A stretch of 57,617 bases of DNA, taken from positions 1 to 57,617 of the forward strand of contig CAYXZA010000005.1 in assembly GCA_964469605.1 (NCBI GenBank). Direction: 5' to 3'. Source of the DNA: an uncultured Candidatus Saccharibacteria bacterium. Its GTDB lineage: Bacteria > Patescibacteriota > Minisyncoccia > Phycocordibacterales > DATDWN01. The position numbers were made by a program, and so were the translations under genes. Positions within the stretch are counted from its first letter, which is position 1; each line of letters opens with the position of its first letter. Below are positions 16,265-38,717 of this stretch, piece after piece. The notes beneath the pieces are model-generated. The model was given only the letters and a program-made list of their open reading frames with translations, was not told where the DNA came from and did not search any database.

Positions 16265-16297
16265 CAAAAAGCTAAGGCTCACCTCTAAAGGTGAGCC
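16265..16297 (-). terminator. Intrinsic terminator after small CDS 16308..16523
   Basis: ggctcacc/ggtgagcc 8-bp hairpin (16276-16297), followed on the minus strand by ttagcttttt. Confidence 0.6.
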
Positions 16298-16307
16298 AAA
16301 AAACAAG

Positions 16308-16523
16308 CTACGATCGACGACAAGCCTTCCTTTTTCCATACTTTATTTTCCATTGACACTGCCTTTCAAGCAGGTAGGAAATAAAGTATTTGGTGTTTGG
16401 GTGCTGAGAAACCACCACCGATGGCCCGTTTATCTCAGCAACAGTGGCAATACCGCCACAATTTTTTCCACCATCACCAAATGATCCTGGAACGTAGATA
16501 CTGCCACCAATACTGATCTGCAT
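16308..16523 (-). CDS. Small Gly-rich orphan protein (71 aa), relatively GC-rich
   Basis: SD aaaggag 6 nt upstream of the ATG. It has its own promoter and terminator. Gly-rich N-terminal half and basic C-terminus (KRKACRRS). Confidence 0.55.
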   Translation of the reverse strand: MQISIGGSIYVPGSFGDGGKNCGGIATVAEINGPSVVVSQHPNTKYFISYLLERQCQWKIKYGKRKACRRS

Positions 16524-16543
16524 GAAAACTCCTTTCTTCCTAA

Positions 16544-16572
16544 GCTATACCAAATATATAAAATATTGTCAA
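16544..16572 (-). promoter_or_regulatory. Sigma70-type promoter for small CDS (module copy 1)
   Basis: Minus strand: TTGACA (16572-16567), N17, TATAGC (16549-16544). Positions 16551-16574 are identical to 17215-17238. Confidence 0.6.
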
Positions 16573-16619
16573 TATATAAGCATGAATATTCTAAAATATA
16601 AATAAAAAATTTTATATAA

Positions 16620-17201
16620 AGACAAAGCGGACAGGGAACCTCGAAAGGTTTTACCTGTCCGCCACAGATTGCGGCAGTGTGGCCCTAAAGAGAAAACAAG
16701 AGCACACCTCAACCGCAAGAAGAACAAAAACACTACACTACACCAACAATGTCAGGCGCGAATGATCTCTAAAGATTCCATCCGCCGACCTGCGAGAGGT
16801 AAGCCATTAGAGACAAGCCCTTAGAAAGCAAAACCCTCTCGTCTCTTTACGGACGAGAAATCCTTTGAGAAGACTCCCCGTCCGTCAAACAAACACAGGG
16901 GTTGTTCCCTACCGTGGGAAGACCCCCCAATACCCCTACCCCACACATGTTCTCGAGAACACTGAGGTCTTTCAGAACAAGAAGCTTGCGCTTGGTTTTT
17001 TGGGCGGATACATTGGTGATCAACACCTCCCTAAACCACTTCCCATTCTATAGAACCGGTGATACCACGCCGGCATGAAACTCACTAAACCTTACTCTTG
17101 CAGGCTAGTGTTCCTCAAAATGAAACCCGTCAAATAACTGACGCGGCTGAAAGGCTATTTAACCCGATACCCTGAAGACTTAGGCATCGAACAACCTTAC
17201 A
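16620..17201 (-). ncRNA. Candidate large (~580 nt) structured non-coding RNA, class unknown
   Basis: Consensus promoter immediately upstream, and an intrinsic terminator at the 3' end (gcggacagg/cctgtccgc, 16627-16662, then a U-rich tail). No ORF of 60 aa or more on this strand. GC-rich against AT-rich flanks. Multiple helices, e.g. 16849-16855 pairs 16879-16885; a 14-nt palindrome at 16948-16961; G-tracts from 16921-16946. Confidence 0.5.
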
Positions 17202-17207
17202 TATACA

Positions 17208-17236
17208 ATTATATCAAATATATAAAATATTGTCAA
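17208..17236 (-). promoter_or_regulatory. Consensus sigma70 promoter (module copy 2)
   Basis: Minus strand: TTGACA (17236-17231), exactly 17 nt, TATAAT (17213-17208). Confidence 0.7.
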
Positions 17237-17629
17237 TACCCAATATTCTTCCATAAAAGATGAGGTTCATCTACTGATATTGTACTTACAATATATTTCG
17301 AAGAGATGGGGTAGATAAAAATTAACTAAAGAAGCCTTCTTGTACCACATAAAAGTGACCAATCAATAAGTTGTAGAAATATACTACAGGCTATTTTTTA
17401 TTTTTATTCACCTCCCCGTACTCTTTATGTAATTTAAGTTTTTTTGGAGTTCTTGGATATGTATGAAAATTAGTGAAATCTTTTTTAATATATAAATTGT
17501 TAAAATACTTTTTAAATAAATTTATTGAAAATTCGCATATCTTTAGCTTCCTAAAGAGTACAGTATGTATTTGGAATTAAACAATGCTAGTTGTCTTGGG
17601 TAGTATTCGAACTAGTATAGTTATATACC

Positions 17630-17662
17630 AAGTAAAGCTAAACCGCTTCTTTCGAAGCGGTT
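17630..17662 (-). terminator. Terminator hairpin after SPFH gene
   Basis: aaccgcttc tttc gaagcggtt (17641-17662), 24 nt after the stop codon. Confidence 0.5.
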
Positions 17663-17685
17663 AAGATCAAGTCTGATTCTAGTGC

Positions 17686-19982: not shown

Positions 19983-20085
19983 GATCCTCAATTTTTATAC
20001 AAAAGAAAATTGGGACTACCACATGATGTAGATAGTCCCAAAAATTTGGCGCAAATGCAAGAATCAAAAGATTCAAACATTCAAG

Positions 20086-21012
20086 CTACAAGGAACATTG
20101 TTGCGGAACGAAACCGGATGCCGTCCCGCAGCTCGCATCGACAATGCCAACGAAGAACGTGTCGAACCTGACCCCACCACTACTGAAGGACACGTCGAAC
20201 CTGACCCCACCACTGCCGAAGCGGAAGAATGGAGCGAGGCCGAAGTGAACATCAGAATCCGGATCGTCGAACTCGTCACCCGAGCAGTCGATCGACAGGT
20301 CGTTGTAGTCCTGTAAACGTTCTAGGTGAGTAAGAAGCATGATCCCGATCTCGAATGCACCAAGACCGAACTCCATTCCGTTGTCGATCATGATTTCACG
20401 TGCTCGGCGGACCGAGCGACCACGATGACGCAAACCGAACTGAGCAGCGACGACGAGGATGTCCTGATCCTTCTGCTCGTTTCCGAGCCTCTGGAACACC
20501 TCCATCTTCACCCTTGACTCATGAAGTTGCTGATCGTTGATCTGCCCCTCTTTCCAGTTGTAGAATTTGCCCTGACGCTGTAACTTCATCGCGTCGAGCA
20601 CCTTCTGAACTGCTTGAGTGTAAGTCGGCGCGATCGTCTGCCACTTAGGGATGGCGAACCATCCCTCAGCACCCACAGGAACTTCACGCTCGGCGAGTTT
20701 TTCGTTGGCGAACCCGATTTCGGGGAAGATCTTGCGCAGAATGTTGCACTGCTCCTTGATCGACTTTGGTTTCTTGTAGCCCGACAAGTAGCCGTGAGTA
20801 GACACTACTTCCTCATCTTTGAACTTGTTAGTGACCCGATTATTGGAGATGAAATCGGCGATGAGATCGGCGAGACCTGGACTGTCGTTGACCCACTGAG
20901 CTTCTTTTTCGGAAAGCCTTGCCTTGTTGTACGAGGCTTCGACGATCGACATAAACTCGAGACCTTTGGGGTCCCGTGAGGTGACTGCTGACGGGACCAA
21001 TGTTTTAAGCAT
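20086..21012 (-). CDS. GC-rich orphan protein (~308 aa) with C-terminal 11-aa tandem repeat
   Basis: Long ORF. SD aaggag abuts the first ATG (21021) but lies 9 nt from the second ATG (21012), so 21012 is preferred. The 21-nt core gtcgaacctgaccccaccact repeats at 20161-20181 and 20194-20214, giving SGGVRFD x2. Confidence 0.7.
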   Translation of the reverse strand: MLKTLVPSAVTSRDPKGLEFMSIVEASYNKARLSEKEAQWVNDSPGLADLIADFISNNRVTNKFKDEEVVSTHGYLSGYKKPKSIKEQCNILRKIFPEIGFANEKLAEREVPVGAEGWFAIPKWQTIAPTYTQAVQKVLDAMKLQRQGKFYNWKEGQINDQQLHESRVKMEVFQRLGNEQKDQDILVVAAQFGLRHRGRSVRRAREIMIDNGMEFGLGAFEIGIMLLTHLERLQDYNDLSIDCSGDEFDDPDSDVHFGLAPFFRFGSGGVRFDVSFSSGGVRFDTFFVGIVDASCGTASGFVPQQCSL

Positions 21013-21071
21013 CGGAACCATCTCCTTTCATGTGTTAGATTCGCCCTAACCGTTGCGACTCTTCTCTTTGT

Positions 21072-21130
21072 GAGACGAGCTTTTTAGGTCTTACTTAATG
21101 TATAAAATTAAGACTCAAAAAGCTCGTCTC
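21072..21130 (-). promoter_or_regulatory. Long 5'-UTR hairpin of CDS 20086..21012
   Basis: gagacgagcttttt (21072-21085) is the exact reverse complement of aaaaagctcgtctc (21117-21130). Inner gtctta/taagac pairing extends the stem. Confidence 0.55.
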
Positions 21131-22560: not shown

Positions 22561-24246
22561 TTATTTCTTAATCTTTAAAATCGCCTCAACAAATCCTGTA
22601 AAAAGAGGGTGTGGCGAAAGAGGTCTTGCTTTTAATTCAGGATGAAATTGGGAACCTAAAAAGAAAGGGTGTTTTTCTTTTGGAAGTTCTGCTATTTCCA
22701 TCAATTTTCCATCTTCAGAAGTTGCAGAAAATACCAATCCCGCATCTTGTATTTTTTCTATATAGTCCAGAGCAACTTCATATCTATGTCTATGTCTTTC
22801 ATCTATTTTTCCAACACCTTGATTTTTTTTATAATCTTTACTCCATTTTAAATAGCAATAATCTGCAATTGTTTTATTTTTTACAAAAGCTGTATAAGAT
22901 CCAAGTCTCATACTAGCCCCCATCTGTCCTTCTTCTATTTTCTTTAATTGATCTGGCATTATATCTATAACCAAATTTTTTGATTTAGGATTAACTTCCC
23001 TACTATGAGCATCTTTTAATCCCAAAACATTTCTAGCATATTCTACAACAGCAAGTTGCATACCATAGCAGAGACCTAAATAAGGTATCTTGTTTTCTCT
23101 AGCAAATGAAATAGCCATTATTATTCCTTCTATACCACTTTCACCAAAACCACCAGGAACAATTATTCCATCAAAATCTTTAAGTTCTGAAATTTTCTTA
23201 GGATTTTGTTCATAATCTTTACTATTTATCCAAACAAGCTCTGGTTTTGCACCAAGATAAAAAGATGAGAATTTTATAGCTTCAATAACTGAAATATAAG
23301 CATCGGAAAGAACAAAATCTCCAGTATCAAAATATTTTCCAACCACAGCTATTTTGATATTTGTTTTTGGATTTTTGATTTTTGAAACCATTTTCCTCCA
23401 ATCCACAAGATCTTTTTGTCTTTCTTTCAATCCAAAAAAACTAAGAACTCTATCAGAAAGACCGTCTTTTTCAAAATTTACAGGAACATCGTAAATACTT
23501 TCTATATCTGGTGCTGATATTACATTTTCAGCCAAAACACCAGTTGACATAGCTATCTTTTCTTTTCTTTTATGATCCAAATGAACAGAACTACGAGCTA
23601 TTATCATATCTGCATTTATACCATAAGAATTTAATTGTCTAACCGCATTTTGAGTTGGTTTTGTTTTCATTTCACCTATCTTTCCAGGAATCGGTAAATA
23701 GGAAACCATCACAAACATAACATCTTTTGGATGTTTTAATTTTAAAATTCTGGCAGCTTCTAGGAAAATAGCATTTTGATATTCACCAACAGTTCCTCCT
23801 ATTTCAAAAACAGTAATTTCAGCATTTGTCTTTTCTATGGATTTTTTGATTCTTCTTAAAATTTCTTCGGTGATATGATATACAGGCTCAACACATTTAC
23901 CTTTGTAACCCAAAGCCCTCTCTTTATCTATAACATATTTAAAAACCATTCCATTTGTCATATAGTTTTCATTTGGAAGTGACTGGTCTAAAAACCTTTC
24001 ATAATTTCCCATATCTTGATCTGTTTCAAGTCCAGAATCAAGAACAAAAACCTCGCCGTGTTCTGTTGGATTCATTGTTCCAGCATCAACATTTAGATAA
24101 GGATCTGCTTTTATTAAAGAAACATTAAATCCTTTTGATTTTAAAATCCTGCCAATAGAAGATGTAGTTATACCCTTTCCAACACCAGACATAACACCAC
24201 CAACAACAAAAATATACTTATGACTTTGGTCTTTTTTTCTTGCCAT
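22561..24246 (-). CDS. pyrG: CTP synthase
   Basis: 561 aa. KYIFVVGGVMSGVGKG, and a GATase domain with LGLCYGMQ and HRHRYE. Confidence 0.95.
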   Translation of the reverse strand: MARKKDQSHKYIFVVGGVMSGVGKGITTSSIGRILKSKGFNVSLIKADPYLNVDAGTMNPTEHGEVFVLDSGLETDQDMGNYERFLDQSLPNENYMTNGMVFKYVIDKERALGYKGKCVEPVYHITEEILRRIKKSIEKTNAEITVFEIGGTVGEYQNAIFLEAARILKLKHPKDVMFVMVSYLPIPGKIGEMKTKPTQNAVRQLNSYGINADMIIARSSVHLDHKRKEKIAMSTGVLAENVISAPDIESIYDVPVNFEKDGLSDRVLSFFGLKERQKDLVDWRKMVSKIKNPKTNIKIAVVGKYFDTGDFVLSDAYISVIEAIKFSSFYLGAKPELVWINSKDYEQNPKKISELKDFDGIIVPGGFGESGIEGIIMAISFARENKIPYLGLCYGMQLAVVEYARNVLGLKDAHSREVNPKSKNLVIDIMPDQLKKIEEGQMGASMRLGSYTAFVKNKTIADYCYLKWSKDYKKNQGVGKIDERHRHRYEVALDYIEKIQDAGLVFSATSEDGKLMEIAELPKEKHPFFLGSQFHPELKARPLSPHPLFTGFVEAILKIKK

Positions 24247-24278
24247 AAAAAATTATTAAAAACTGAATAATACCTACA

Positions 24279-25205
24279 CTATACCTTTAAATGCCTACGA
24301 ACCGCAAGGAAACTAGAAAATGATCCGACTATTACACCAGATAATAAGACAATGATAAATATTTCACCAAAATTTGATATATAATATTTAAAAACATTTA
24401 GCCCAACAAAGAAATTTTCTGTTGCACTTCCTAAATAATATGTAGCTGGAAAAAACAGAAACAGTGTTATTATGGCAGAAGTTAAACCATATAAAGCCCC
24501 AGATACAATAAAAGGCCCTTTAACATAAGTATTACTTGCTCCAACAAGTCTCATAACAGCTATCTCATCTTTCGACATAAATATAGCAAGTCTAACAGTA
24601 TTAAGTGTAATCAAAATAGATATAAAGACCAAAAACAATGTCAGTGCAAAACCTATCTTGTTTGCAGAATCTATAAGACGAGTCAAAGTGTCTATTGCAT
24701 TTTTATTTTGATAATAGTTTACCTTATCTATAATACTTTCAGAATCTGTTGATATAGAGTTTTTAGTTTTTAGAAAATTTGCAATACCTTCATATTGAGA
24801 AGGCTCTTTTGCTCTTATATTGAGAGATGCTCCAAAAGGATTCTCACCAAGTTCATCTAGTGCCTGTAAAGTAAAATCATCGTTCTCGTGTTTTTTCTTA
24901 AATTCATCCAAAGCATCCTCTTTTGAAGTATAGGAAATCGAGGACACCTCAGGTAAACTTTCTATTGATTTTTTCATAGCCAATATATCATTTTCATTTG
25001 CACTCTTTACAAAATAAACATTTATATCAACTTTATTTTTTATTTCATTTAAACTAGTGTTTAGTATTGCACCTAAAAACATTGTAGATGTGATAACCGA
25101 CAATGTTATAACCATTACTAACACAGAAGAGAATGAAACAAAACCGTTTCTCCAAAAGCTAAAAAAACCTGATCTTGCAACTCTTTTAAATGAAGTCCAT
25201 AACAT
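24279..25205 (-). CDS. ftsX: Cell division permease-like protein FtsX
   Basis: 308 aa, 4 TM with a large first periplasmic loop, directly downstream of ftsE. Confidence 0.8.
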   Translation of the reverse strand: MLWTSFKRVARSGFFSFWRNGFVSFSSVLVMVITLSVITSTMFLGAILNTSLNEIKNKVDINVYFVKSANENDILAMKKSIESLPEVSSISYTSKEDALDEFKKKHENDDFTLQALDELGENPFGASLNIRAKEPSQYEGIANFLKTKNSISTDSESIIDKVNYYQNKNAIDTLTRLIDSANKIGFALTLFLVFISILITLNTVRLAIFMSKDEIAVMRLVGASNTYVKGPFIVSGALYGLTSAIITLFLFFPATYYLGSATENFFVGLNVFKYYISNFGEIFIIVLLSGVIVGSFSSFLAVRRHLKV

Positions 25206-32398: not shown

Positions 32399-32412
32399 CT
32401 TTTTTTATTATA

Positions 32413-32465
32413 CCCTGTTTCGTTCTTTCGAACTCATCAGTCGAGATACACATCTCGAGACAGAG
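32413..32465 (-). ncRNA. Hammerhead ribozyme, type III (HHR-1)
   Basis: Minus strand: CUCUGUC UCGAGAU-GUGU-AUCUCGA CUGAUGA GUUC-GAAA-GAAC GAAA CAGGG. All core nucleotides are present. GUC cleavage triplet, predicted cut between 32459 and 32458. Stem III 6 bp, stem I 7 bp, stem II 4 bp with GNRA loop. Confidence 0.85.
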
Positions 32466-32557
32466 GAGGTATCAAACCAAGACACCTCCAGTTAAACCAA
32501 GGGAACAGTAGTTGGACTGTTTCCAGAACCTGCACCTGCCAACTCAGGATTAAAGAA

Positions 32558-33667
32558 CTACTTCTTGTTGCGTGCACCCCACTTAGAAGCGAGAGCCTCG
32601 AGCGAAACGGACAACTTAACTGACTGTTTTGGTATCGATTGAGCTACCTGCGGATTATGTAACCGTCTAGCAAGGGTAACTTCAACCTCTGCAACAACAG
32701 CATTGGCGTTAGTTATCCATTCCACGCACTCTTCTTTCGTTTCTGGAATGGAAGCAAAGTAAAAACTATACAACTTATCCAGCAGACTAGATTCAATCCC
32801 GCATGAGGCGTACGTGTCGTAGAGACTCCTGACATGATTTTGGACTTTTTCAGCCTCGGAAAGAATATTTTCGATTTCACGCCGATCTCTCGCTTTAACT
32901 TTGGCTTTTTCCAGCTCAACCTGTGCATTGTTGAAAGCTGTCTCGGCTTGCATACGGACCCGAAACCACTCTGTCTTCCATATGATCGAATCCGAAGACC
33001 AAGACCTGGAAGCAGTCAAGGTTCCAAAAGCAAAAAGGTCTTCGCCTGTCATCACGCACCTGCCGTAAACGACAGTGATGATGTCAGAGAGGACTGTTTT
33101 GTCGGTGATCTCCGTTGGAACAGCAATGACTGGCCTATCAATCCAGCGACTCCACTGCCCTTCATTCAGCCGACTCTTCATCGATTGCTTCAGAGCAACA
33201 ATGTCGCTTCCTTCTGCAAGTGCCGACCACGAGGTCGACGACTTGAGAACGATGTGAACTGCGCGTCCGCCAGGGAGCTTCACTCCCTCATTTGGCAATT
33301 CATTCCAGCAGTTGCTAGAAATGAACTCATCACCGAGCGTTACTTGCGGAAGTCTCGGCGTGTCGCAGTACGGTTCACGATACTCCACTGGCACCACCTT
33401 GCCGAGAACAATGATCGAATCGGGATTCATTTCCCGAGTCAGATTCACCAACCCGACATCAAGCGCCGGAAGCCGGAGTAAATCGAGATTGGAAATTGTC
33501 GCGCAAGAGATCGCACCTTTGAGACGCGATCCGAGCCACAGTTTCCATTCCTCGTTCGTCATGACGGGGAAAACGATTTCCCCCGCGCGATTGTTCCACT
33601 TCCGAGCCTCCATCTGGATGGCCCGGTTGGCGGCGATAACCGCCTGGATAGTTTCAAAATTCGTCAT
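32558..33667 (-). CDS. GC-rich orphan protein (369 aa) with C-terminal coiled coil
   Basis: SD gaggag 5 nt upstream of the ATG, preceded by conserved leader copy A. No family recognised. Confidence 0.75.
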   Translation of the reverse strand: MTNFETIQAVIAANRAIQMEARKWNNRAGEIVFPVMTNEEWKLWLGSRLKGAISCATISNLDLLRLPALDVGLVNLTREMNPDSIIVLGKVVPVEYREPYCDTPRLPQVTLGDEFISSNCWNELPNEGVKLPGGRAVHIVLKSSTSWSALAEGSDIVALKQSMKSRLNEGQWSRWIDRPVIAVPTEITDKTVLSDIITVVYGRCVMTGEDLFAFGTLTASRSWSSDSIIWKTEWFRVRMQAETAFNNAQVELEKAKVKARDRREIENILSEAEKVQNHVRSLYDTYASCGIESSLLDKLYSFYFASIPETKEECVEWITNANAVVAEVEVTLARRLHNPQVAQSIPKQSVKLSVSLEALASKWGARNKK

Positions 33668-33671
33668 TTTA

Positions 33672-33764
33672 TCTCCTCAAGCAAGGGAACATCATGTCCC
33701 ACCCCTGCTCGGCCCAATTAAGGACTTTCCATCTTGCGACGGACTTTGTAGAGCTGGGTGCTCG
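33672..33764 (-). promoter_or_regulatory. Conserved structured leader, copy A (upstream of ORF369)
   Basis: ~93 nt, near-identical to 36247-36340. Three hairpins: gagca..(u)gcuc; ccgucGCAAga(u/c)gg; and agcagggg/cccuugcu, which ends 1 nt before the SD. Confidence 0.6.
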
Positions 33765-33918
33765 AGAAAATAATTGGAAATTTTTAAGTTTCCACACGAA
33801 CTCCTATCAGCTTTCGAATTGATTCGTTAGCTGAATAAGAGAGGCAACAACATGGTCGCCTCGTAAACCTAAACCATGCACCCCTGTATATAAAATATGA
33901 AGAGGGTGCGAAAGAACA

Positions 33919-34281
33919 TCAAAGGAACAGTTGAAGGGTGTCCTCTAGCCCCCGAAGTCTGAACTTAAATATGTAACCATCACTGATCTGTATGAGTTCA
34001 GACTCCTCAATGGTATCGCGGGGAAACTGCCGAAGAAGGAATCTTTCCACCTCCAGCAACATTTCCTCTCTCGTCAGGCGAGTAAGCAGTCTCTCTCTCA
34101 TCTCTTTCCACTCTTCAACAAAGAAGAGTGACCTGAGATGATCAGAATACTCCTCGGCGATTTTTTCACTACTAGGAACTTCTCCCGTTTTTTTAGTCCA
34201 AAACCACAATTCGCCAAAACAAAAGCGAAAGTATTCCCAGACCAGAAACGGTAGAAGGAAGACGTACTTTACAAGCCACAT
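33919..34281 (-). CDS. Small orphan protein (120 aa) with hydrophobic N-terminus
   Basis: SD aggag upstream; starts 9 nt after the helicase stop. N-terminal hydrophobic/aromatic segment. Confidence 0.6.
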   Translation of the reverse strand: MWLVKYVFLLPFLVWEYFRFCFGELWFWTKKTGEVPSSEKIAEEYSDHLRSLFFVEEWKEMRERLLTRLTREEMLLEVERFLLRQFPRDTIEESELIQISDGYIFKFRLRGLEDTLQLFL

Positions 34282-34289
34282 CTTTTCTC

Positions 34290-36242
34290 CTAATAGATAC
34301 TCATTTGTCCCGCGAGCCAGGAACAGAAAACGTCTGCCGCTTTGGGATGAGTCGGCGTAGGCACGATCTCTTCTTTGATTTTGGAACCATTGAAGAAAAC
34401 ATGCTGATTTGAAACAACCGAATCTTGAATTGGATCAAACCAAAGATCAACATCTTCAAACCTAACCAGTTGAGGAGCGATCTCCATCAACCACATCGGA
34501 TCAACCTTTGTAGCCATGCGAACGAGCCGCAGAGTCATGGTACCACCGCGACGAGTCTTGATTTCAAGATCGAATGGCAGTCCAACGATCCAATCGCCAG
34601 ACCTCACCACCGACTCCCGAGCAAGCTGCCGATCGGTATCATCCCCATTTCGCCACCGACCGTAGTCGTTGCAGTAGAGGTGATCCACCATTCCGGCGCA
34701 AACAGCCTTCAGGATATTATCCCTCTTACCGCTCGACCGAAAATTACGAACTTTGTCACGCAACGCTTCCGCGAGGTGGCGACGCTTCTCCTTTGCTTGG
34801 AAGAAGGCTCTGACGAAGATGCCGTTGTCGACCATCACGTCCTTCTGCATGTTCTCAGCCGCTTTCCATACTGCAAGCTGAGCCATGAGGTCTGACGAAT
34901 CCTCGGTGCCAATGAGACTCCTCCACTTGGGAGTCTCCCATTCGCTCTTCGGACGAGCAGTGATTTCTCCCTGCTCGAGAATGGCAGCGATCGTTACAAC
35001 GTCGTCCACCACTCCCAGCCGATCGGCTTCTACCACCATCCGTGCAAACTGCACGGAGAGTGGCAAACGCGCGACTTGCTTACCGATTTGAGTAACGGCA
35101 CCAGTTTCCGAAAGACAACCGAGCGCCTTGAGTGCACGCTTGGCTTCGTGGATCTCGCTTTTCTTGGGCTGATGGAAGAAGTCAAGCTTCTCCATATCAA
35201 ACCCCGCTTCAGCGAGACGCAGAACTGTCTGATCAAGCCGAGAACGGAGAATTTCCGCTACCGGGAAATCAGGGCGATCGTATGCCGGACACATGTCCAC
35301 ATAGATGCCTGGCTTCGTGCGACCAGCGCGACCTTTGCGCTGCTTGGAGTCGGCTAACGAAATCGGTTTCAGATAAAGTCCTTCGACTCCATCCACCACC
35401 TCCACTCGCCGTTCCATTCCGCCATCCACCACCGCATCGATGTCGTCGATCGTGACACTTGTTTGCGCTACGTTCGTCGATACGACGCACTTGGCTCGCG
35501 GGTAGCGACGAAAAGCTTTCGCCTGTTCGTGGCTATCTAACTCGCCGTGAAGCGGGAGGACTTCAGCCGACACACCCGAACCCTGAATGATTTGGATGGT
35601 TTCGCCGATTTCCTTTTTACCTGCTTCAAACACAAGGACGTTGCGTCCTTGCTGAAGCAGAGCAATCGCTTCAGTTGCTGTCTTTGTCGTGGTCGGTCGC
35701 TGTTCCGTCACCGGAAACAAACAACCTGGCACAGATATGATCGGTGCGCCATCGAAGAACATCGAAAGCTTTTCGGCTTCCAAAGTGGCACTCATGAGCA
35801 CCACCTTAAAATCGACACCCCGAGACAGCATGAGCTTAGCCCATGCAACCAGAGTCTCGATATTGATGTTCCACTCGTGTACCTCGTCGAGGACGAGGAT
35901 CTGGTGCTTGCCCGCACCCATCAGTTCCCGCACAAGTGCGAGACCATCAGTGCAAAACAAGCAACGAGTCCACTCGCTGTCTTTCCGCTCCATTGCGGTG
36001 CGGAAGCCAACAATCAAGCCAAGATCCTCACCCCATTCTTCAGCTACCCGTTCAGAAACCGTACGAGCAGCGAGACGACGCGGCTGGGTGACAACCAAGT
36101 CATACCCCGCCTCGAGCAGGTATTGTGGCACTTGTGTGCTTTTTCCCGCTCCGGTTTCGGCTGTGATGACCACGACCGCGTTTTCCTTGATCAACTTTAG
36201 GATCTGATCCTTGAAGTTAGCGATGGGTAACGTTGTATTCAT
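34290..36242 (-). CDS. DEAH/RHA-family helicase (HrpA/HrpB-like, compact 650 aa)
   Basis: Motif I AETGAGKST, Ia TQPRRLAA, II LDEVHE, III SAT, V TNVAQTSVTI, VI QRKGRAGR, followed by HA2-like and OB-like C-terminal regions. Confidence 0.9.
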   Translation of the reverse strand: MNTTLPIANFKDQILKLIKENAVVVITAETGAGKSTQVPQYLLEAGYDLVVTQPRRLAARTVSERVAEEWGEDLGLIVGFRTAMERKDSEWTRCLFCTDGLALVRELMGAGKHQILVLDEVHEWNINIETLVAWAKLMLSRGVDFKVVLMSATLEAEKLSMFFDGAPIISVPGCLFPVTEQRPTTTKTATEAIALLQQGRNVLVFEAGKKEIGETIQIIQGSGVSAEVLPLHGELDSHEQAKAFRRYPRAKCVVSTNVAQTSVTIDDIDAVVDGGMERRVEVVDGVEGLYLKPISLADSKQRKGRAGRTKPGIYVDMCPAYDRPDFPVAEILRSRLDQTVLRLAEAGFDMEKLDFFHQPKKSEIHEAKRALKALGCLSETGAVTQIGKQVARLPLSVQFARMVVEADRLGVVDDVVTIAAILEQGEITARPKSEWETPKWRSLIGTEDSSDLMAQLAVWKAAENMQKDVMVDNGIFVRAFFQAKEKRRHLAEALRDKVRNFRSSGKRDNILKAVCAGMVDHLYCNDYGRWRNGDDTDRQLARESVVRSGDWIVGLPFDLEIKTRRGGTMTLRLVRMATKVDPMWLMEIAPQLVRFEDVDLWFDPIQDSVVSNQHVFFNGSKIKEEIVPTPTHPKAADVFCSWLAGQMSIY

Positions 36243-36246
36243 TTAG

Positions 36247-36340
36247 TCTCCTCAAGCAAGGGGAATTTCTTTCCCACCCCTGCTCGGCCCAATTAAGGAC
36301 TTTCCGTCTTGCGACGGACTTTGTAGAGCAGGGATGCTCG
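36247..36340 (-). promoter_or_regulatory. Conserved structured leader, copy B (upstream of helicase)
   Basis: Same three-hairpin arrangement as copy A. The third hairpin's loop differs completely, while its 8-bp stem is retained. Confidence 0.6.
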
Positions 36341-36364
36341 GAAAACAAACTGAAGCACAATTTT

Positions 36365-36413
36365 CTGTTTCGTTCTTTCGAACTCATCAGGGTAAGTACG
36401 CACTTACCGACAG
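36365..36413 (-). ncRNA. Hammerhead ribozyme, type III (HHR-2)
   Basis: Minus strand: CUGUC GGUAAGU-GCGU-ACUUACC CUGAUGA GUUC-GAAA-GAAC GAAA CAG. Core and stem II are identical to HHR-1. Stem I is entirely different in sequence but still 7 bp. Predicted cut between 36409 and 36408. Confidence 0.8.
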
Positions 36414-36508
36414 TGAGGAGTTTTGCAATTTACCTTTTGCAGGTACTCCTCAAACCTTTTGAACCATAGTAATTATTTATGAGTCGCTACCACAAACGAC
36501 TACACCGA

Positions 36509-37054
36509 CTACTGATGGATGGTGTGTGAGCAGAATAAACCATCGGGAGCTTTTTTCAGTTCCTTAAGGTCTCTCGCCACCCCCCAACCAGCTTCGCTGG
36601 TACGACCCAGTAGATAGGACATCTGCTGGGCACTGAGAGGGTAAAATTGAACTCCCACATCAACACTTTTTTTCTCCCGACCTCCTTCAAAAGTGGGAGC
36701 TTGATACTCTTTGTATTCATGAGAGTACCACGCCGGACCATTGTTTCCATCCCACTGATGTACACCATCACTCAAACGGACAGTGTCCACCTTGAGACGA
36801 AAGTTCAGATAGACCCTTCCGCGTTTGACCGTGATTGAGTCGCAGTACGAGAGTTCCCAATTAGTGGGCGTGGCCTCAAACTCTTCTTTTTTGCCAGGGC
36901 GGCTTAACAGCCACTCTGACAGAGTTTTCCCTTTCACGGCGGTGAACCGCTGGGAAGCGGGCAGTGGCATACTTTTTTCCATCACCTTGACAAACTTTGC
37001 CACCACGGCGCGGGCGCGGTGAGAAAAAGGAAACTCACAAATTGATTCATACAT
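36509..37054 (-). CDS. GC-rich orphan protein (181 aa)
   Basis: Complete ORF with SD gtgagg upstream; no family recognised. Confidence 0.7.
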   Translation of the reverse strand: MYESICEFPFSHRARAVVAKFVKVMEKSMPLPASQRFTAVKGKTLSEWLLSRPGKKEEFEATPTNWELSYCDSITVKRGRVYLNFRLKVDTVRLSDGVHQWDGNNGPAWYSHEYKEYQAPTFEGGREKKSVDVGVQFYPLSAQQMSYLLGRTSEAGWGVARDLKELKKAPDGLFCSHTIHQ

Positions 37055-37102
37055 ACAAACCTCACTTCGCCGTTTATCGCCCGGCCGGCGGAATTTCCCT
37101 CA

Positions 37103-37157
37103 GTACAGAGGGCAAATTGTTAATCAATATTATTGATTAACAATTTGCCCTCTGTAC
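37103..37157. repeat. Perfect 55-bp palindrome (27-bp arms, 1-nt centre)
   Basis: gtacagagggcaaattgttaatcaata t tattgattaacaatttgccctctgtac, located 49 nt upstream of the ORF181 start codon. Confidence 0.95.
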
Positions 37158-37234
37158 ACTATCTATCTATAGCTAAACTTTTTATTCAGTCTTCCAAATC
37201 AACGATTCTTTTAAAAATCACAAACTTAGAAGAT

Positions 37235-37263
37235 GAGCCGAGTGCAAACCATGAACTCGGCTC
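37235..37263 (-). terminator. Hairpin terminator after the 23-codon ORF
   Basis: gagccgag/ctcggctc stem, followed on the minus strand by a U-containing tail. Confidence 0.5.
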
Positions 37264-37337
37264 GTGAACCTAAACCATGAGACAAAGAGTCAGCTCTGTC
37301 TCGAAAGAACATTACCCACTGACTTGGGATTAAAAAT

Positions 37338-37409
37338 CTACTTGGACTTTGCAGCCAAAGCGTCCTGGCGGGATAGACAAACTACCCCGTTAACGACGTA
37401 AAGAGTCAT
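37338..37409 (-). CDS. Possible 23-codon micro-ORF (MTLYVVNGVVCLSRQDALAAKSK)
   Basis: SD aaggag 9 nt upstream of the ATG. Very short, so coding status is unproven. Confidence 0.3.
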   Translation of the reverse strand: MTLYVVNGVVCLSRQDALAAKSK

Positions 37410-37532
37410 TTTGTTGATCTCCTTTAAACCTATTCTCAAATATATTTCATGCTTTGTGGAACAGAAATATATAAACAATCCAGGCCCACTGTCTTGCAAC
37501 ATGCGCCCGTGCCAATTGTGCCAATCGAGAGA

Positions 37533-37712
37533 TTACTTTTTCTTCAAATTGGCCACCACCGTGACGGCGAACCGCGGATCGTGACGGAGAGCATTGAGCC
37601 CCGCCACGACTGCGAGAGGGGCACGCCCCTCGCGAGCCATCATCCTGATGGATTGATTGTTCAGAACCGCCGGGCGACCCGGCGTCGGGTAGACTTGATT
37701 ATTGGTATTCAT
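37533..37712 (-). CDS. Small GC-rich orphan protein (59 aa)
   Basis: Start at MNTNNQ with SD aaggag 10 nt upstream. The longer 108-aa ORF-track version has no SD and runs through hairpin-rich sequence. Confidence 0.55.
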   Translation of the reverse strand: MNTNNQVYPTPGRPAVLNNQSIRMMAREGRAPLAVVAGLNALRHDPRFAVTVVANLKKK

Positions 37713-38327
37713 GATAGATAATCTCCTTTTTCTCCTCGATTTTACCCTCGAGGCGGGTTTGTACTTTAGGGATTTTGCAACCCCTCTTTCCGACACTAAA
37801 CTTATCAATATATACTGTCGGAGAAGAGGAATAACATTGCAGTCTGTGTTTACACACAAATTATTCTACGTTTTCCTTGCCCGTCATAGCTTTACGCGAC
37901 GTCGGACTTAACTTCTCTATTCAATTATCAAAGATCTTCTTATCCTCCTTCCTCTTTTTGATTAGCGAAGACATTCTTGGAAGCAATGACTGGTTTAGTT
38001 CCATTCCTTCCAAACGATGTCCTAACTTGTGGTTAGTATCGGTTGATTTATAGAAATGAACCCACATAAGATGTGCATTAAATTGTTTATTTCTTCCTCT
38101 CTCCTCTTACCACGCTTTCGGCCGTCGGTCACCGTCTGTAATATCTTTCGATAATCCAGAACAGAGATGGAGAACAATTTAATATCTATCTCCTTGTAAA
38201 AAAACCAGGTGGAACGTCTCTTACGAGCTTCCTATAACTCTCTCCTCATTGAGAGAAGTGGAGAGGCGACTTTGTGTAATAATTTAATTCACATCCACAC
38301 TTCTTTTAACAAGATGTTTACAATTGA

Positions 38328-38381
38328 TTTTGAAAACAAAACAGACCATTAGCTCCTTGAGAAGAGCCAATGGTCTGTTTA
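38328..38381 (-). terminator. Intrinsic terminator inside the long untranslated tract
   Basis: acagaccatt/aatggtctgt plus gctc/gagc inner stem (38341-38378), followed on the minus strand by uuuguuuuc. Confidence 0.6.
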
Positions 38382-38520
38382 CAACGTTGGTTGTTTGATG
38401 ACCGAATACTTATACTACATTTATATACAATAGTATATTTCAGAACATCAAGACTCTCTCCTCTAAAAATTGTCTTAATTATGTTGTTATTTAAATGAAC
38501 CTAAACCTTTTTAATCTTAC
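38382..38520 (-). ncRNA. Candidate small RNA (with its terminator ~190 nt in total) from the consensus promoter at 38527-38555
   Basis: Lies between the predicted TSS (about 38520) and the terminator hairpin at 38341-38378. Only a 2-codon ORF. Confidence 0.35.
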
Positions 38521-38526
38521 TCTTTA

Positions 38527-38555
38527 ATTATATCATATTGATATAATAATGTCAA
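38527..38555 (-). promoter_or_regulatory. Consensus sigma70 promoter
   Basis: Minus strand: TTGACA (38555-38550), exactly 17 nt, TATAAT (38532-38527). Confidence 0.7.
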
Positions 38556-38575
38556 GCACTTTTTAACATACTTTT

Positions 38576-38612
38576 AAAGACCTTAAAATTACTTTATAAT
38601 TTTAAGGTCTTT
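38576..38612. terminator. 16-bp perfect hairpin downstream of the HTH gene
   Basis: aaagaccttaaaatta (38576-38591) pairs with taattttaaggtcttt (38597-38612). No clean U-tail. Confidence 0.45.
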
Positions 38613-38717
38613 AAAAACCACCTTTCAAGGATTTTATTTAGGCTACCTAGTGGACAAAGCTAAAACTGAAACAATAAAAACGAAAGCCCAACCAAGGTCG
38701 TGCCTCGCATCGGGTGT

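What the first reader, a model, noticed from the sequence alone, without database searches (positions are those of the whole stretch)
16620..17236. Promoter-to-terminator ~580-nt GC-rich transcription unit with no ORF: candidate large structured ncRNA
A perfect consensus promoter (TTGACA, 17 nt, TATAAT at 17236-17208, minus strand) is followed by about 580 nt, ending at a strong intrinsic terminator (gcggacagg...cctgtccgc at 16627-16662, then a U-rich tail). The provided six-frame track has no minus-strand ORF of 60 aa or more here and only one 62-aa plus-strand ORF. The segment is far more GC-rich than its AT-rich flanks and is full of short helices, including 16849-16855 pairing with 16879-16885, mutually exclusive cucguc/gacgag pairing, a 14-nt palindrome at 16948-16961, and gccaca/uguggc near the 3' end. 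It also carries runs of G on the RNA strand (from 16921-16946) that could form a G-quadruplex. I could not find RNase P, tmRNA, SRP, 6S, group I or group II signatures by eye. Its size is in the range of large bacterial ncRNAs of unknown function (OLE, ROOL and GOLLD type), which are often found in mobile or prophage contexts like this one.
Basis: partly seen in the sequence, partly recalled or inferred. Interest (0 to 1): 0.72.

Follow-up and report, generated by a model that had tools for sequence, protein, structure and literature searches.

The report
Orphan promoter-to-terminator candidate noncoding RNA
A roughly 590-base stretch in a small, AT-rich bacterial genome has a perfect promoter, a strong terminator and no protein-coding signal, so it is probably a noncoding RNA gene, but no relative was found anywhere and its function and folded shape cannot yet be tested.

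Summary
A 12/12 TG-extended sigma-70 promoter sits at 17236-17208 on the minus strand. About 590 nt follow at 48% GC, and the unit ends in a -23 kcal/mol hairpin plus U tract (16664-16612). It lies in the longest ORF-free gap of the contig. No coding signal appears in any frame.

It matches no Rfam 15 family, even at E<=10. No homolog appeared in protein space or in seeded scans of viral, GTDB-genome and JGI-metagenome contigs. Five relatives lack it beside their SPFH gene. It is therefore an orphan, and covariation cannot be tested.

The predicted fold is strong (z = -5.2) but not diagnostic, because GC-rich protein-coding islands of the same contig score -5.9 and -7.1.

The context is a Patescibacteria-like chromosome, not a prophage. 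However, the same 29-nt promoter is duplicated immediately downstream. There it drives a real 71-aa protein whose family occurs in phages and in archaeal-looking contigs.

Best reading (about 0.5): a lineage-specific, strongly transcribed, stand-alone noncoding RNA within a recently acquired two-gene cassette. Main rival (about 0.27): a transcribed relic of foreign GC-rich DNA. Interest is moderate to low until homologs or transcript data exist.

The parts
17208..17236 (-). Sigma-70 promoter TTGACA-17 nt-TATAAT with a TG extension. The inferred transcription start is near 17201.
   Evidence: 12/12 match. One search shows it is one of only two 12/12 sites in the contig. The start site is inferred from the -10 position.
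16612..17201 (-). Candidate noncoding transcript of about 590 nt. Composition is G 28%, U 33%, A 21%, C 19%.
   Evidence: No coding signal was found. No Rfam match.
16612..16664 (-). Intrinsic terminator: a 10-bp GC-rich stem with a nested UUCG mini-hairpin (-23.1 kcal/mol), followed by a U-rich tail.
   Evidence: inverted repeat I15; pair probability 0.98.
16840..16895 (-). Most stable internal element: a 15-bp hairpin (16884-16850, -20.7 kcal/mol; extended form -28.5). Its 3' strand can instead pair in a weaker terminator-like hairpin (16860-16835, -11.1 kcal/mol, followed by GUUUUGCUUU).
16921..16946 (-). G-run cluster GGGG-UA-GGGG-UAUU-GGGGGG. In the minimum-energy fold it pairs with 16796-16813 (probability about 0.83). 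G-quadruplex formation is possible but was not tested.
16947..16962 (-). Palindromic hairpin GUGUUC-UCGA-GAACAU.
   Evidence: pair probability 0.89.
16546..16574 (-). Second copy of the same promoter: 28 of 29 nt are identical, including 24 consecutive nt. The -10 hexamer reads TATAGC.
   Evidence: (direct repeat D1). Similarity stops at the promoter.
16308..16523 (-). 71-aa protein gene with an AAAGGAG ribosome-binding site. It is a real family member with the conserved motif IYVP...GGIATV...LLE.Q.WK..Y..KA. The predicted fold is a small beta-barrel plus a C-terminal basic helix.
   Evidence: The structure model is weak (pLDDT 72.5). Tudor/SH3-like fold matches are not significant.
16276..16297 (-). 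Intrinsic terminator of the 71-aa gene: 9-bp stem, -15.5 kcal/mol, followed by UUAGCUUUUU.

Best explanation
This is most likely a stand-alone, strongly and probably constitutively transcribed noncoding RNA gene of about 590 nt. It is specific to this Patescibacteria-like lineage. It sits in a small accessory cassette together with a 71-aa phage-family protein gene that carries a copy of the same promoter.

Shown:
- The unit has its own consensus promoter and its own intrinsic terminator.
- It has no coding signature in any frame.
- It occupies the longest ORF-free gap of a compact genome.
- Its G+U-rich sense strand is predicted to fold into a multi-domain structure with several long, high-probability helices.

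Inferred:
- The product acts as a folded RNA in trans, not as an mRNA or a leader. It would serve as a stable scaffold or as the partner of a protein.
- The adjacent small basic beta-barrel protein is the obvious candidate partner, because the two units share a promoter and lie side by side.
- The twin promoters would then set the relative amounts of the RNA and the protein.
- The biochemical activity remains unknown.
For: - Promoter and terminator.
- Non-coding character:
  - There is no ORF of 60 aa or more on the sense strand.
  - Stop counts of 7, 9 and 12 per roughly 200 codons compare with about 10 expected from composition.
  - There is no 3-base periodicity (p = 0.23).
  - Codon log-likelihood is negative in all six frames, at -0.30 to -0.46 bits per codon. 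Real GC-island genes score +0.01 to +0.25.
  - No Pfam domain appears in any frame.
  - The six-frame translation has no hit among 5.8 billion proteins.
- Fold: the minimum energy is -219.6 kcal/mol with z = -5.19. Helices of 13, 15 and 17 bp have pair probabilities of 0.83-0.98. The sense strand is 59 kcal/mol more stable than the antisense strand.
- Genomic setting: it lies in the longest ORF-free gap of the contig.
- Assembly: four independent assemblies give the identical sequence here.
- Link to the neighbour: the 29-nt promoter is duplicated in front of a real protein gene.
- General precedent: long GC-rich intergenic regions in AT-rich genomes are the basis of the GC-IGR method of ncRNA discovery (PMC6429828, PMC8632094, PMC11109978).
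Against: - No homolog exists in any collection searched, so there is no covariation and no evidence of purifying selection.
- Five relatives whose SPFH protein is 60-80% identical lack the element next to their SPFH gene.
- Fold stability is not diagnostic here. GC-rich coding islands of the same contig reach z = -5.9 and -7.1. They still reach -3.6 to -4.5 against codon-shuffled controls.
- High GC in this contig also marks foreign protein-coding DNA.
- The 5' half shows borderline periodicity (p = 0.058).
- Homologs of the 71-aa protein in phage-like and archaeal-looking contigs have no adjacent RNA of this kind.
- In GC-IGR surveys most such intergenic regions end up as 'unnamed' or low-ranking candidates (PMC11109978).
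- No expression data are available.
Confidence: 0.5

Rival explanations
1. The segment is a relic of horizontally acquired GC-rich DNA. On this reading it is a decayed foreign gene or an untranslated remnant that happens to lie between a copied host promoter and a terminator. It may be transcribed but has no function as an RNA. Its folding potential is a general property of the foreign GC-rich DNA in this genome.
For: - Other GC-rich islands in the contig are protein-coding and sit behind similar strong TG-extended promoters.
- Those islands fold as well as or better than this region.
- The element and its neighbour gene are absent from relatives, so the acquisition looks recent.
- The 5' half shows a weak GC-by-phase pattern (0.54/0.35/0.56, p = 0.058), in the frame of the 59-aa and 62-aa ORFs.
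Against: - No protein similarity appears in any frame.
- Stop codons occur at the random expectation in every frame, and codon scores are at off-frame level. Any gene would therefore have to be fully eroded.
- At 48% GC the region is lower than the coding islands (peak 120-nt-window GC 0.61-0.68 in the clearest ones, against 0.55 here).
- The perfect promoter and the clean terminator are intact.
- Small genomes with reduced gene content usually delete dead DNA (established knowledge).
Confidence: 0.27
2. The RNA is a long cis-regulatory leader or attenuator for the downstream 71-aa gene. The internal pair of mutually exclusive hairpins (the 15-bp hairpin against the terminator-like hairpin), together with read-through of the final terminator, would control how much transcription from the strong upstream promoter reaches the small gene.
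For: - Mutually exclusive pairing exists at 16884-16835, and the weaker hairpin is followed by GUUUUGCUUU.
- The downstream gene is on the same strand, about 90 nt after the terminator. Its own -10 hexamer is weaker, TATAGC.
Against: - The 15-bp hairpin is much more stable (-20.7 or -28.5 against -11.1 kcal/mol) and is transcribed first, so the internal terminator should rarely form.
- A strong terminator of -23 kcal/mol and a separate full promoter lie between the RNA and the gene.
- A leader of 590 nt for a 71-aa gene would be unusual.
- No riboswitch or leader family matches.
Confidence: 0.1
3. The transcript is an mRNA for one or more very small proteins. Candidates are the 13-aa MYPPKKPSASFLF peptide downstream of GGGAGGUG and the 59-aa GTG-initiated ORF 17026-16847.
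For: - A strong Shine-Dalgarno-like GGGAGGUG lies at 17031-17024, with an AUG 11 nt downstream at 17013.
- A 59-aa ORF exists in the frame that shows weak periodicity.
Against: - The spacing between the Shine-Dalgarno-like motif and the start codons is poor: 11 nt to the AUG, and essentially none to the GTG.
- The codon score of the 59-aa ORF is negative (-0.17).
- No homolog of any frame is known.
- Most of the 590 nt would be left unexplained.
Confidence: 0.05

Closest known systems
Large ornate bacterial ncRNAs of unknown function: OLE, ROOL, GOLLD and raiA (Rfam families; cryo-EM work in PMC12286853 and PMC12968392)
   Same: It is in the size range of ROOL (about 580 nt) and OLE (about 610 nt). 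It is a stand-alone transcription unit with no ORF and a predicted multi-helix architecture. It lies next to a phage-family gene, and ROOL and GOLLD are often found in prophages.
   Different: It matches none of these covariance models, even at E<=10. It has no known homologs at all, whereas those classes are defined by hundreds of covarying representatives. It lies on a Patescibacteria-like chromosome, not in Firmicutes or a prophage.
'Unnamed' or low-ranking candidates from GC-IGR surveys of AT-rich bacterial genomes (PMC6429828, PMC8632094, PMC11109978)
   Same: It is a long intergenic region with GC content far above the genome background, which is exactly the selection criterion of that pipeline. 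It has too few representatives to build a consensus model.
   Different: This one has unusually clear boundaries, with a perfect promoter and a strong terminator. It is also much longer than most such candidates.
Type III toxin-antitoxin loci (ToxIN-like): promoter, antitoxin RNA, terminator, then protein gene
   Same: The gene order matches: a noncoding RNA ends in an intrinsic terminator and is followed directly by a small protein gene on the same strand.
   Different: The RNA has no tandem repeats. The protein is a 71-aa beta-barrel-like domain with no endoribonuclease signature. The protein gene has its own promoter.

Membership tests
OLE / ROOL / GOLLD / raiA / HEARO (Rfam 15 covariance models) | A match to the family covariance model, covering conserved sequence blocks plus secondary structure. 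| tested here: not met
   cmscan of the whole window at gathering thresholds found only 7 tRNAs. cmscan of 16400-17400 at E<=10 with relaxed filters gave only four noise hits (mir-3327, IhtA, CRISPR-DR57, Chlorobi-1; 12-19 bits against gathering scores of 39-85).
Universal housekeeping RNAs (RNase P RNA, tmRNA, SRP RNA, 6S RNA) | A covariance-model match, or for tmRNA a tRNA-like domain plus a tag reading frame. Presence across related genomes is also expected. | tested here: not met
   There is no Rfam hit at E<=10. ARAGORN finds no tmRNA. Seeded scans of 185,579 GTDB species genomes found no relative.
Self-splicing introns and ribozymes (group I, group II, and small ribozymes in Rfam) | A covariance-model match to the catalytic core. 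| tested here: not met
Type III toxin-antitoxin system | An antitoxin RNA made of tandem direct repeats, processed by the toxin. | tested here: not met
   Tandem Repeats Finder and the repeat search found no repeats inside 16612-17201.
Type III toxin-antitoxin system | A downstream ToxN/AbiQ-like endoribonuclease toxin. | tested here: not met
   The 71-aa protein has no Pfam or PHROG hit. It has no PDB sequence hit. Its model resembles a Tudor/SH3-like barrel only weakly.
Riboswitch or transcription attenuator (cis-regulatory leader) | The element lies in the 5' untranslated region of the regulated gene, within the same transcript. | tested here: not met
   The unit ends in its own -23 kcal/mol terminator, and a separate promoter precedes the next gene. 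Read-through was not testable.
Structured ncRNA in general | Compensatory base changes (covariation) across homologs. | not testable with these tools
   Only identical copies were retrieved. All homolog searches were negative.
Structured ncRNA in general | A discrete, stable transcript in vivo. | not testable with these tools
   No transcriptome data are accessible here.

The most novel reading that the evidence does not exclude
The unit encodes the founding member of a new class of large structured RNA in Patescibacteria. It would work as a ribonucleoprotein with the adjacent phage-derived small beta-barrel protein, with both expressed from twin copies of one promoter. Such an acquired RNA-protein module might act in phage or host interaction.
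Probability: 0.1. Interest if true: 0.65.

Novelty: new member of a known kind. Interest (0 to 1): 0.35.

Why it matters
Patescibacteria have tiny genomes, and little appears to be published on their noncoding RNAs (two full-text literature searches found nothing relevant). A real RNA of about 590 nt would add a large RNA of unknown function from a lineage where very few have been described. It would also point to RNA-based functions that move with phage-type genes.

As things stand it is one sequence from one organism. Its value is as a well-delimited target for transcript mapping and for deeper nucleotide-level homology searches. It does not yet support a biological claim.

The control result has practical value. 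In this contig, GC richness and fold z-scores do not separate RNA genes from foreign coding DNA.

Tried and rejected
**Known RNA families.** Rfam was run at gathering thresholds and at E<=10. Nothing matched.

**Pseudogene or BLASTx-type tests.**
- The six-frame translation, sent as a single query against 5.8 billion proteins, gave no hit at E<=10.
- Pfam on all six frames gave nothing.
- tblastx against the rest of the contig matched only the promoter copy.

**Synteny with the SPFH gene.** In relatives at 60-80% identity the neighbouring genes differ. nhmmer found no RNA homolog.

**Seeded scans with pseudo-proteins from all three sense frames.**
- Viral contigs were scanned with three frames.
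- GTDB genomes were scanned with two frames.
- JGI metagenomes were scanned with two frames.
- No scan returned a relative.
- These scans use six 8-residue seeds each plus a tblastn filter. Relatives below roughly 85% identity could therefore be missed.

**BLASTn in distant mode.** Phage and plasmid records gave no match.

**The 71-aa gene as a synteny anchor.**
- It has real but distant homologs.
- Their loci are phage-like or archaeal-looking and contain no comparable RNA.
- A scan of viral contigs with the family alignment found nothing.

**Other ideas tested and dropped.**
- Unit 1 is not a paralogue or a decayed copy of unit 2. Similarity ends with the 29-nt promoter, and the downstream alignment score (25) equals the shuffled mean (24.5).
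- The region is not a TIGR, CRISPR or type III antitoxin array, because it contains no repeats.
- GGA motifs are not enriched: a count by eye from the sequence gives about 10, against about 9 expected from the composition. A CsrA-sponge reading was not pursued.
- The literature searches found no paper on the source accessions and no described large ncRNA in Patescibacteria.

Full report
**Observation**

- The minus strand carries TTGACA-17 nt-TATAAT at 17236-17208 with a TG extension, a 12/12 match.
- My scan of the whole contig finds only two 12/12 sites; the other is at 38555-38527.
- Transcription should start near 17201.
- It should end at a 10-bp GC-rich stem with a nested UUCG mini-hairpin (16664-16626, -23.1 kcal/mol), followed by UUGUCUUUAUAU. 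That gives an RNA of about 590 nt.
- GC content is 0.46-0.50, against 0.17-0.33 in the flanks.
- The small helices, the 14-nt palindrome and the G runs are all at the stated positions.
- The ORF-free gap 16524-17685 (1162 nt) is the longest in the 57.6-kb contig.
- The sequence is not an assembly artefact. Three Logan contigs (100% identical) and an NCBI contig (no differences between 9.5 and 24 kb) cover it.

**Context**

The window is not a prophage. It is a chromosomal contig with 33% GC overall.
- It encodes GroEL, RNase J, CTP synthase, transporters and seven tRNAs.
- Named homologs of the upstream SPFH protein come from Candidatus Paceibacterota, Magasanikbacteria and Gracilibacteria. 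The organism is therefore most likely a Patescibacteria (CPR) bacterium.

**Not coding**
- The sense strand has no ORF of 60 aa or more.
- Stop codons number 7, 9 and 12 in the three sense frames. About 10 per frame are expected from composition.
- There is no 3-base periodicity overall (p = 0.23). Real genes of either GC class give p = 0, except the two shortest GC-island ORFs (181 and 108 aa), which are borderline (p = 0.034 and 0.052).
- A codon-usage log-likelihood trained on the GC-rich genes of the contig is negative in all six frames (-0.30 to -0.46 bits per codon). Those genes score +0.01 to +0.25 in frame under leave-one-out.
- No Pfam domain appears in any frame.
- A concatenated six-frame translation finds nothing among 5.8 billion proteins.
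- The only hint of coding ancestry is borderline periodicity in the 5' half (p = 0.058).
- No small ORF has a convincing ribosome-binding site.

**Not a known RNA**

Rfam 15 reports only tRNAs in the window at gathering thresholds. At E<=10 on the 1-kb region it returns four noise hits far below their thresholds. ARAGORN finds no tmRNA. There are no tandem or dispersed repeats in the RNA. That rules out CRISPR, TIGR and type III antitoxin arrays.

**An orphan**

I found only identical copies.
- Relatives whose SPFH protein is 60-80% identical have different genes downstream of it and no similar sequence.
- Multi-seed scans used pseudo-proteins from the three sense frames, with six degenerate 24-nt seeds each. 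They found no relative in IMG/VR, in one genome for each of 185,579 GTDB species, or in JGI metagenome contigs.
- Phage and plasmid records gave nothing.
- These scans could miss relatives below about 85% identity, so 'orphan' means 'no close relative in these collections'.
- The consequence is that covariation, the decisive test for a structured RNA, cannot be done here.

**Fold evidence and its control**
- The transcript folds at -219.6 kcal/mol, z = -5.19 against dinucleotide shuffles.
- It has several long helices of high pair probability. These include a 13-bp helix (17050-17038 with 16985-16973), a 15-bp hairpin (16884-16850), a bulged 17-bp helix that engages the G runs, and a long-range closing helix (17116-17109 with 16726-16719).
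- The sense strand is G+U-rich and 59 kcal/mol more stable than the antisense strand.
- When I ran the same test on other GC-rich parts of the contig, protein-coding segments scored as well or better. A segment inside the DEAH helicase gene gave z = -7.1, and one at the start of the 369-aa gene gave -5.9.
- Those segments stay at -3.6 to -4.5 even against codon-shuffled controls.
- AT-rich host genes score between +1.4 and -2.5.
- In this contig, therefore, neither GC richness nor a strongly negative z-score separates an RNA gene from foreign coding DNA.

**The neighbour**

Immediately after the terminator the same promoter recurs at 16574-16546. It is identical at 28 of 29 nt, 24 of them consecutive, and its -10 hexamer reads TATAGC. 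Similarity stops there. This second promoter drives a 71-aa ORF with an AAAGGAG ribosome-binding site and its own terminator.
- The word-indexed protein search found only the ORF itself.
- A full HMMER scan of 1.84 billion representatives found true homologs of 111-251 aa. They share the motif IYVP...GGIATV...LLE.Q.WK..Y..KA.
- These homologs lie in phage-like contigs made of many small ORFs, in Maribacter phage Panino and an uncultured 462-kb phage, and in contigs that look archaeal, next to TrmB and a RecA/Rad51-family gene.
- None of those loci contains an RNA like this one.
- A weak AlphaFold model (pLDDT 72.5) shows four strands plus a basic C-terminal helix. It resembles Tudor/SH3-like barrels without significance.
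- The 71-aa gene is therefore real and of phage type. Together with the RNA unit it looks like a lineage-specific insertion.

**Most likely mechanism**

The best-supported reading (confidence about 0.5) is a stand-alone noncoding RNA gene. It would be strongly transcribed, terminated efficiently, and would act as a folded RNA. Any link to the small protein (co-regulation through the twin promoters, possibly direct binding) is inference from adjacency and promoter identity only.

**Rivals**
1. A transcribed relic of foreign GC-rich DNA (about 0.27). The control results and the orphan status favour it. The complete lack of coding residue and the intact signals count against it.
2. A long leader or attenuator for the 71-aa gene (about 0.1). 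The mutually exclusive hairpins at 16884-16835 suggest it. The dominant 15-bp hairpin, the strong terminator and the separate promoter count against it.
3. An mRNA for a small peptide (about 0.05).

**Comparison with known systems and novelty**

By size and layout it resembles ROOL and OLE-class large RNAs. It also resembles the 'unnamed' long GC-rich intergenic regions reported by GC-IGR surveys (PMC11109978). It is not a member of any Rfam family. If real, it is a new, so far single-member, example of a known kind of element. Interest is moderate to low until homologs or transcript data exist.

Noticed in passing
window 32407-37133, also 37219-37799, 20010-21102 and 1-932: GC-rich islands (up to 0.61-0.68 GC in a 33% GC contig) that are protein-coding and look foreign. 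They encode a 650-aa DEAH/HA2 helicase, unknown proteins of 369, 120, 181 and 311 aa, and a PGDYG protein. Their coding RNA is predicted to be unusually structured: z = -7.1 and -5.9, and still -3.6 to -4.5 against codon shuffles. AT-rich host genes are not. I have no explanation for this.
   Followed up: partly
window 38555-37860 (minus strand): The only other 12/12 TG-extended promoter (38555-38527) heads the second-longest ORF-free gap (37860-38717, 858 nt). About 140-190 nt downstream lies a perfect 19-bp hairpin plus U tract (about 38380-38332). This suggests a separate sRNA or leader of about 190 nt. The 661-nt stretch folds with z = -5.1. No Rfam family matches.
   Followed up: partly
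window 21192-21022 (minus strand): An 11/12 TG-extended promoter (21192-21165) precedes the GC-rich 311-aa ORF. The leader of about 140 nt contains a long hairpin, gagacgagc...gctcgtctc (21130-21072).
   Followed up: no
window about 37103-37157: A near-perfect palindrome of about 55 nt (gtacagagggcaaattgttaatcaataatattgattaacaatttgccctctgtac) lies just upstream of the 181-aa gene. It could be an operator or a bidirectional terminator.
   Followed up: no
window 16308-16523 (minus strand); loci L011-L020: The 71-aa ORF belongs to an uncharacterised small-domain family. Members occur in the early-gene region of Maribacter phage Panino, in a 462-kb uncultured phage, in phage-like metagenome contigs, and in archaeal-looking contigs next to TrmB. 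No Pfam or PHROG model covers it.
   Followed up: partly
window 32984-33163 (minus strand, inside the 369-aa ORF): By tblastn, the phage-type homolog P0087 of the 71-aa family also matches this stretch weakly (E = 0.005). A second, diverged copy of the domain may therefore sit in the GC-rich island.
   Followed up: no
window 24000-24929 compared with L001: The NCBI contig JACCDG010961116.1 shows no differences from the window between 9.5 and 24 kb. However, 84 of its 91 differences cluster in the last roughly 900 bases at its contig end. This could be strain variation or an assembly-end effect.
   Followed up: no
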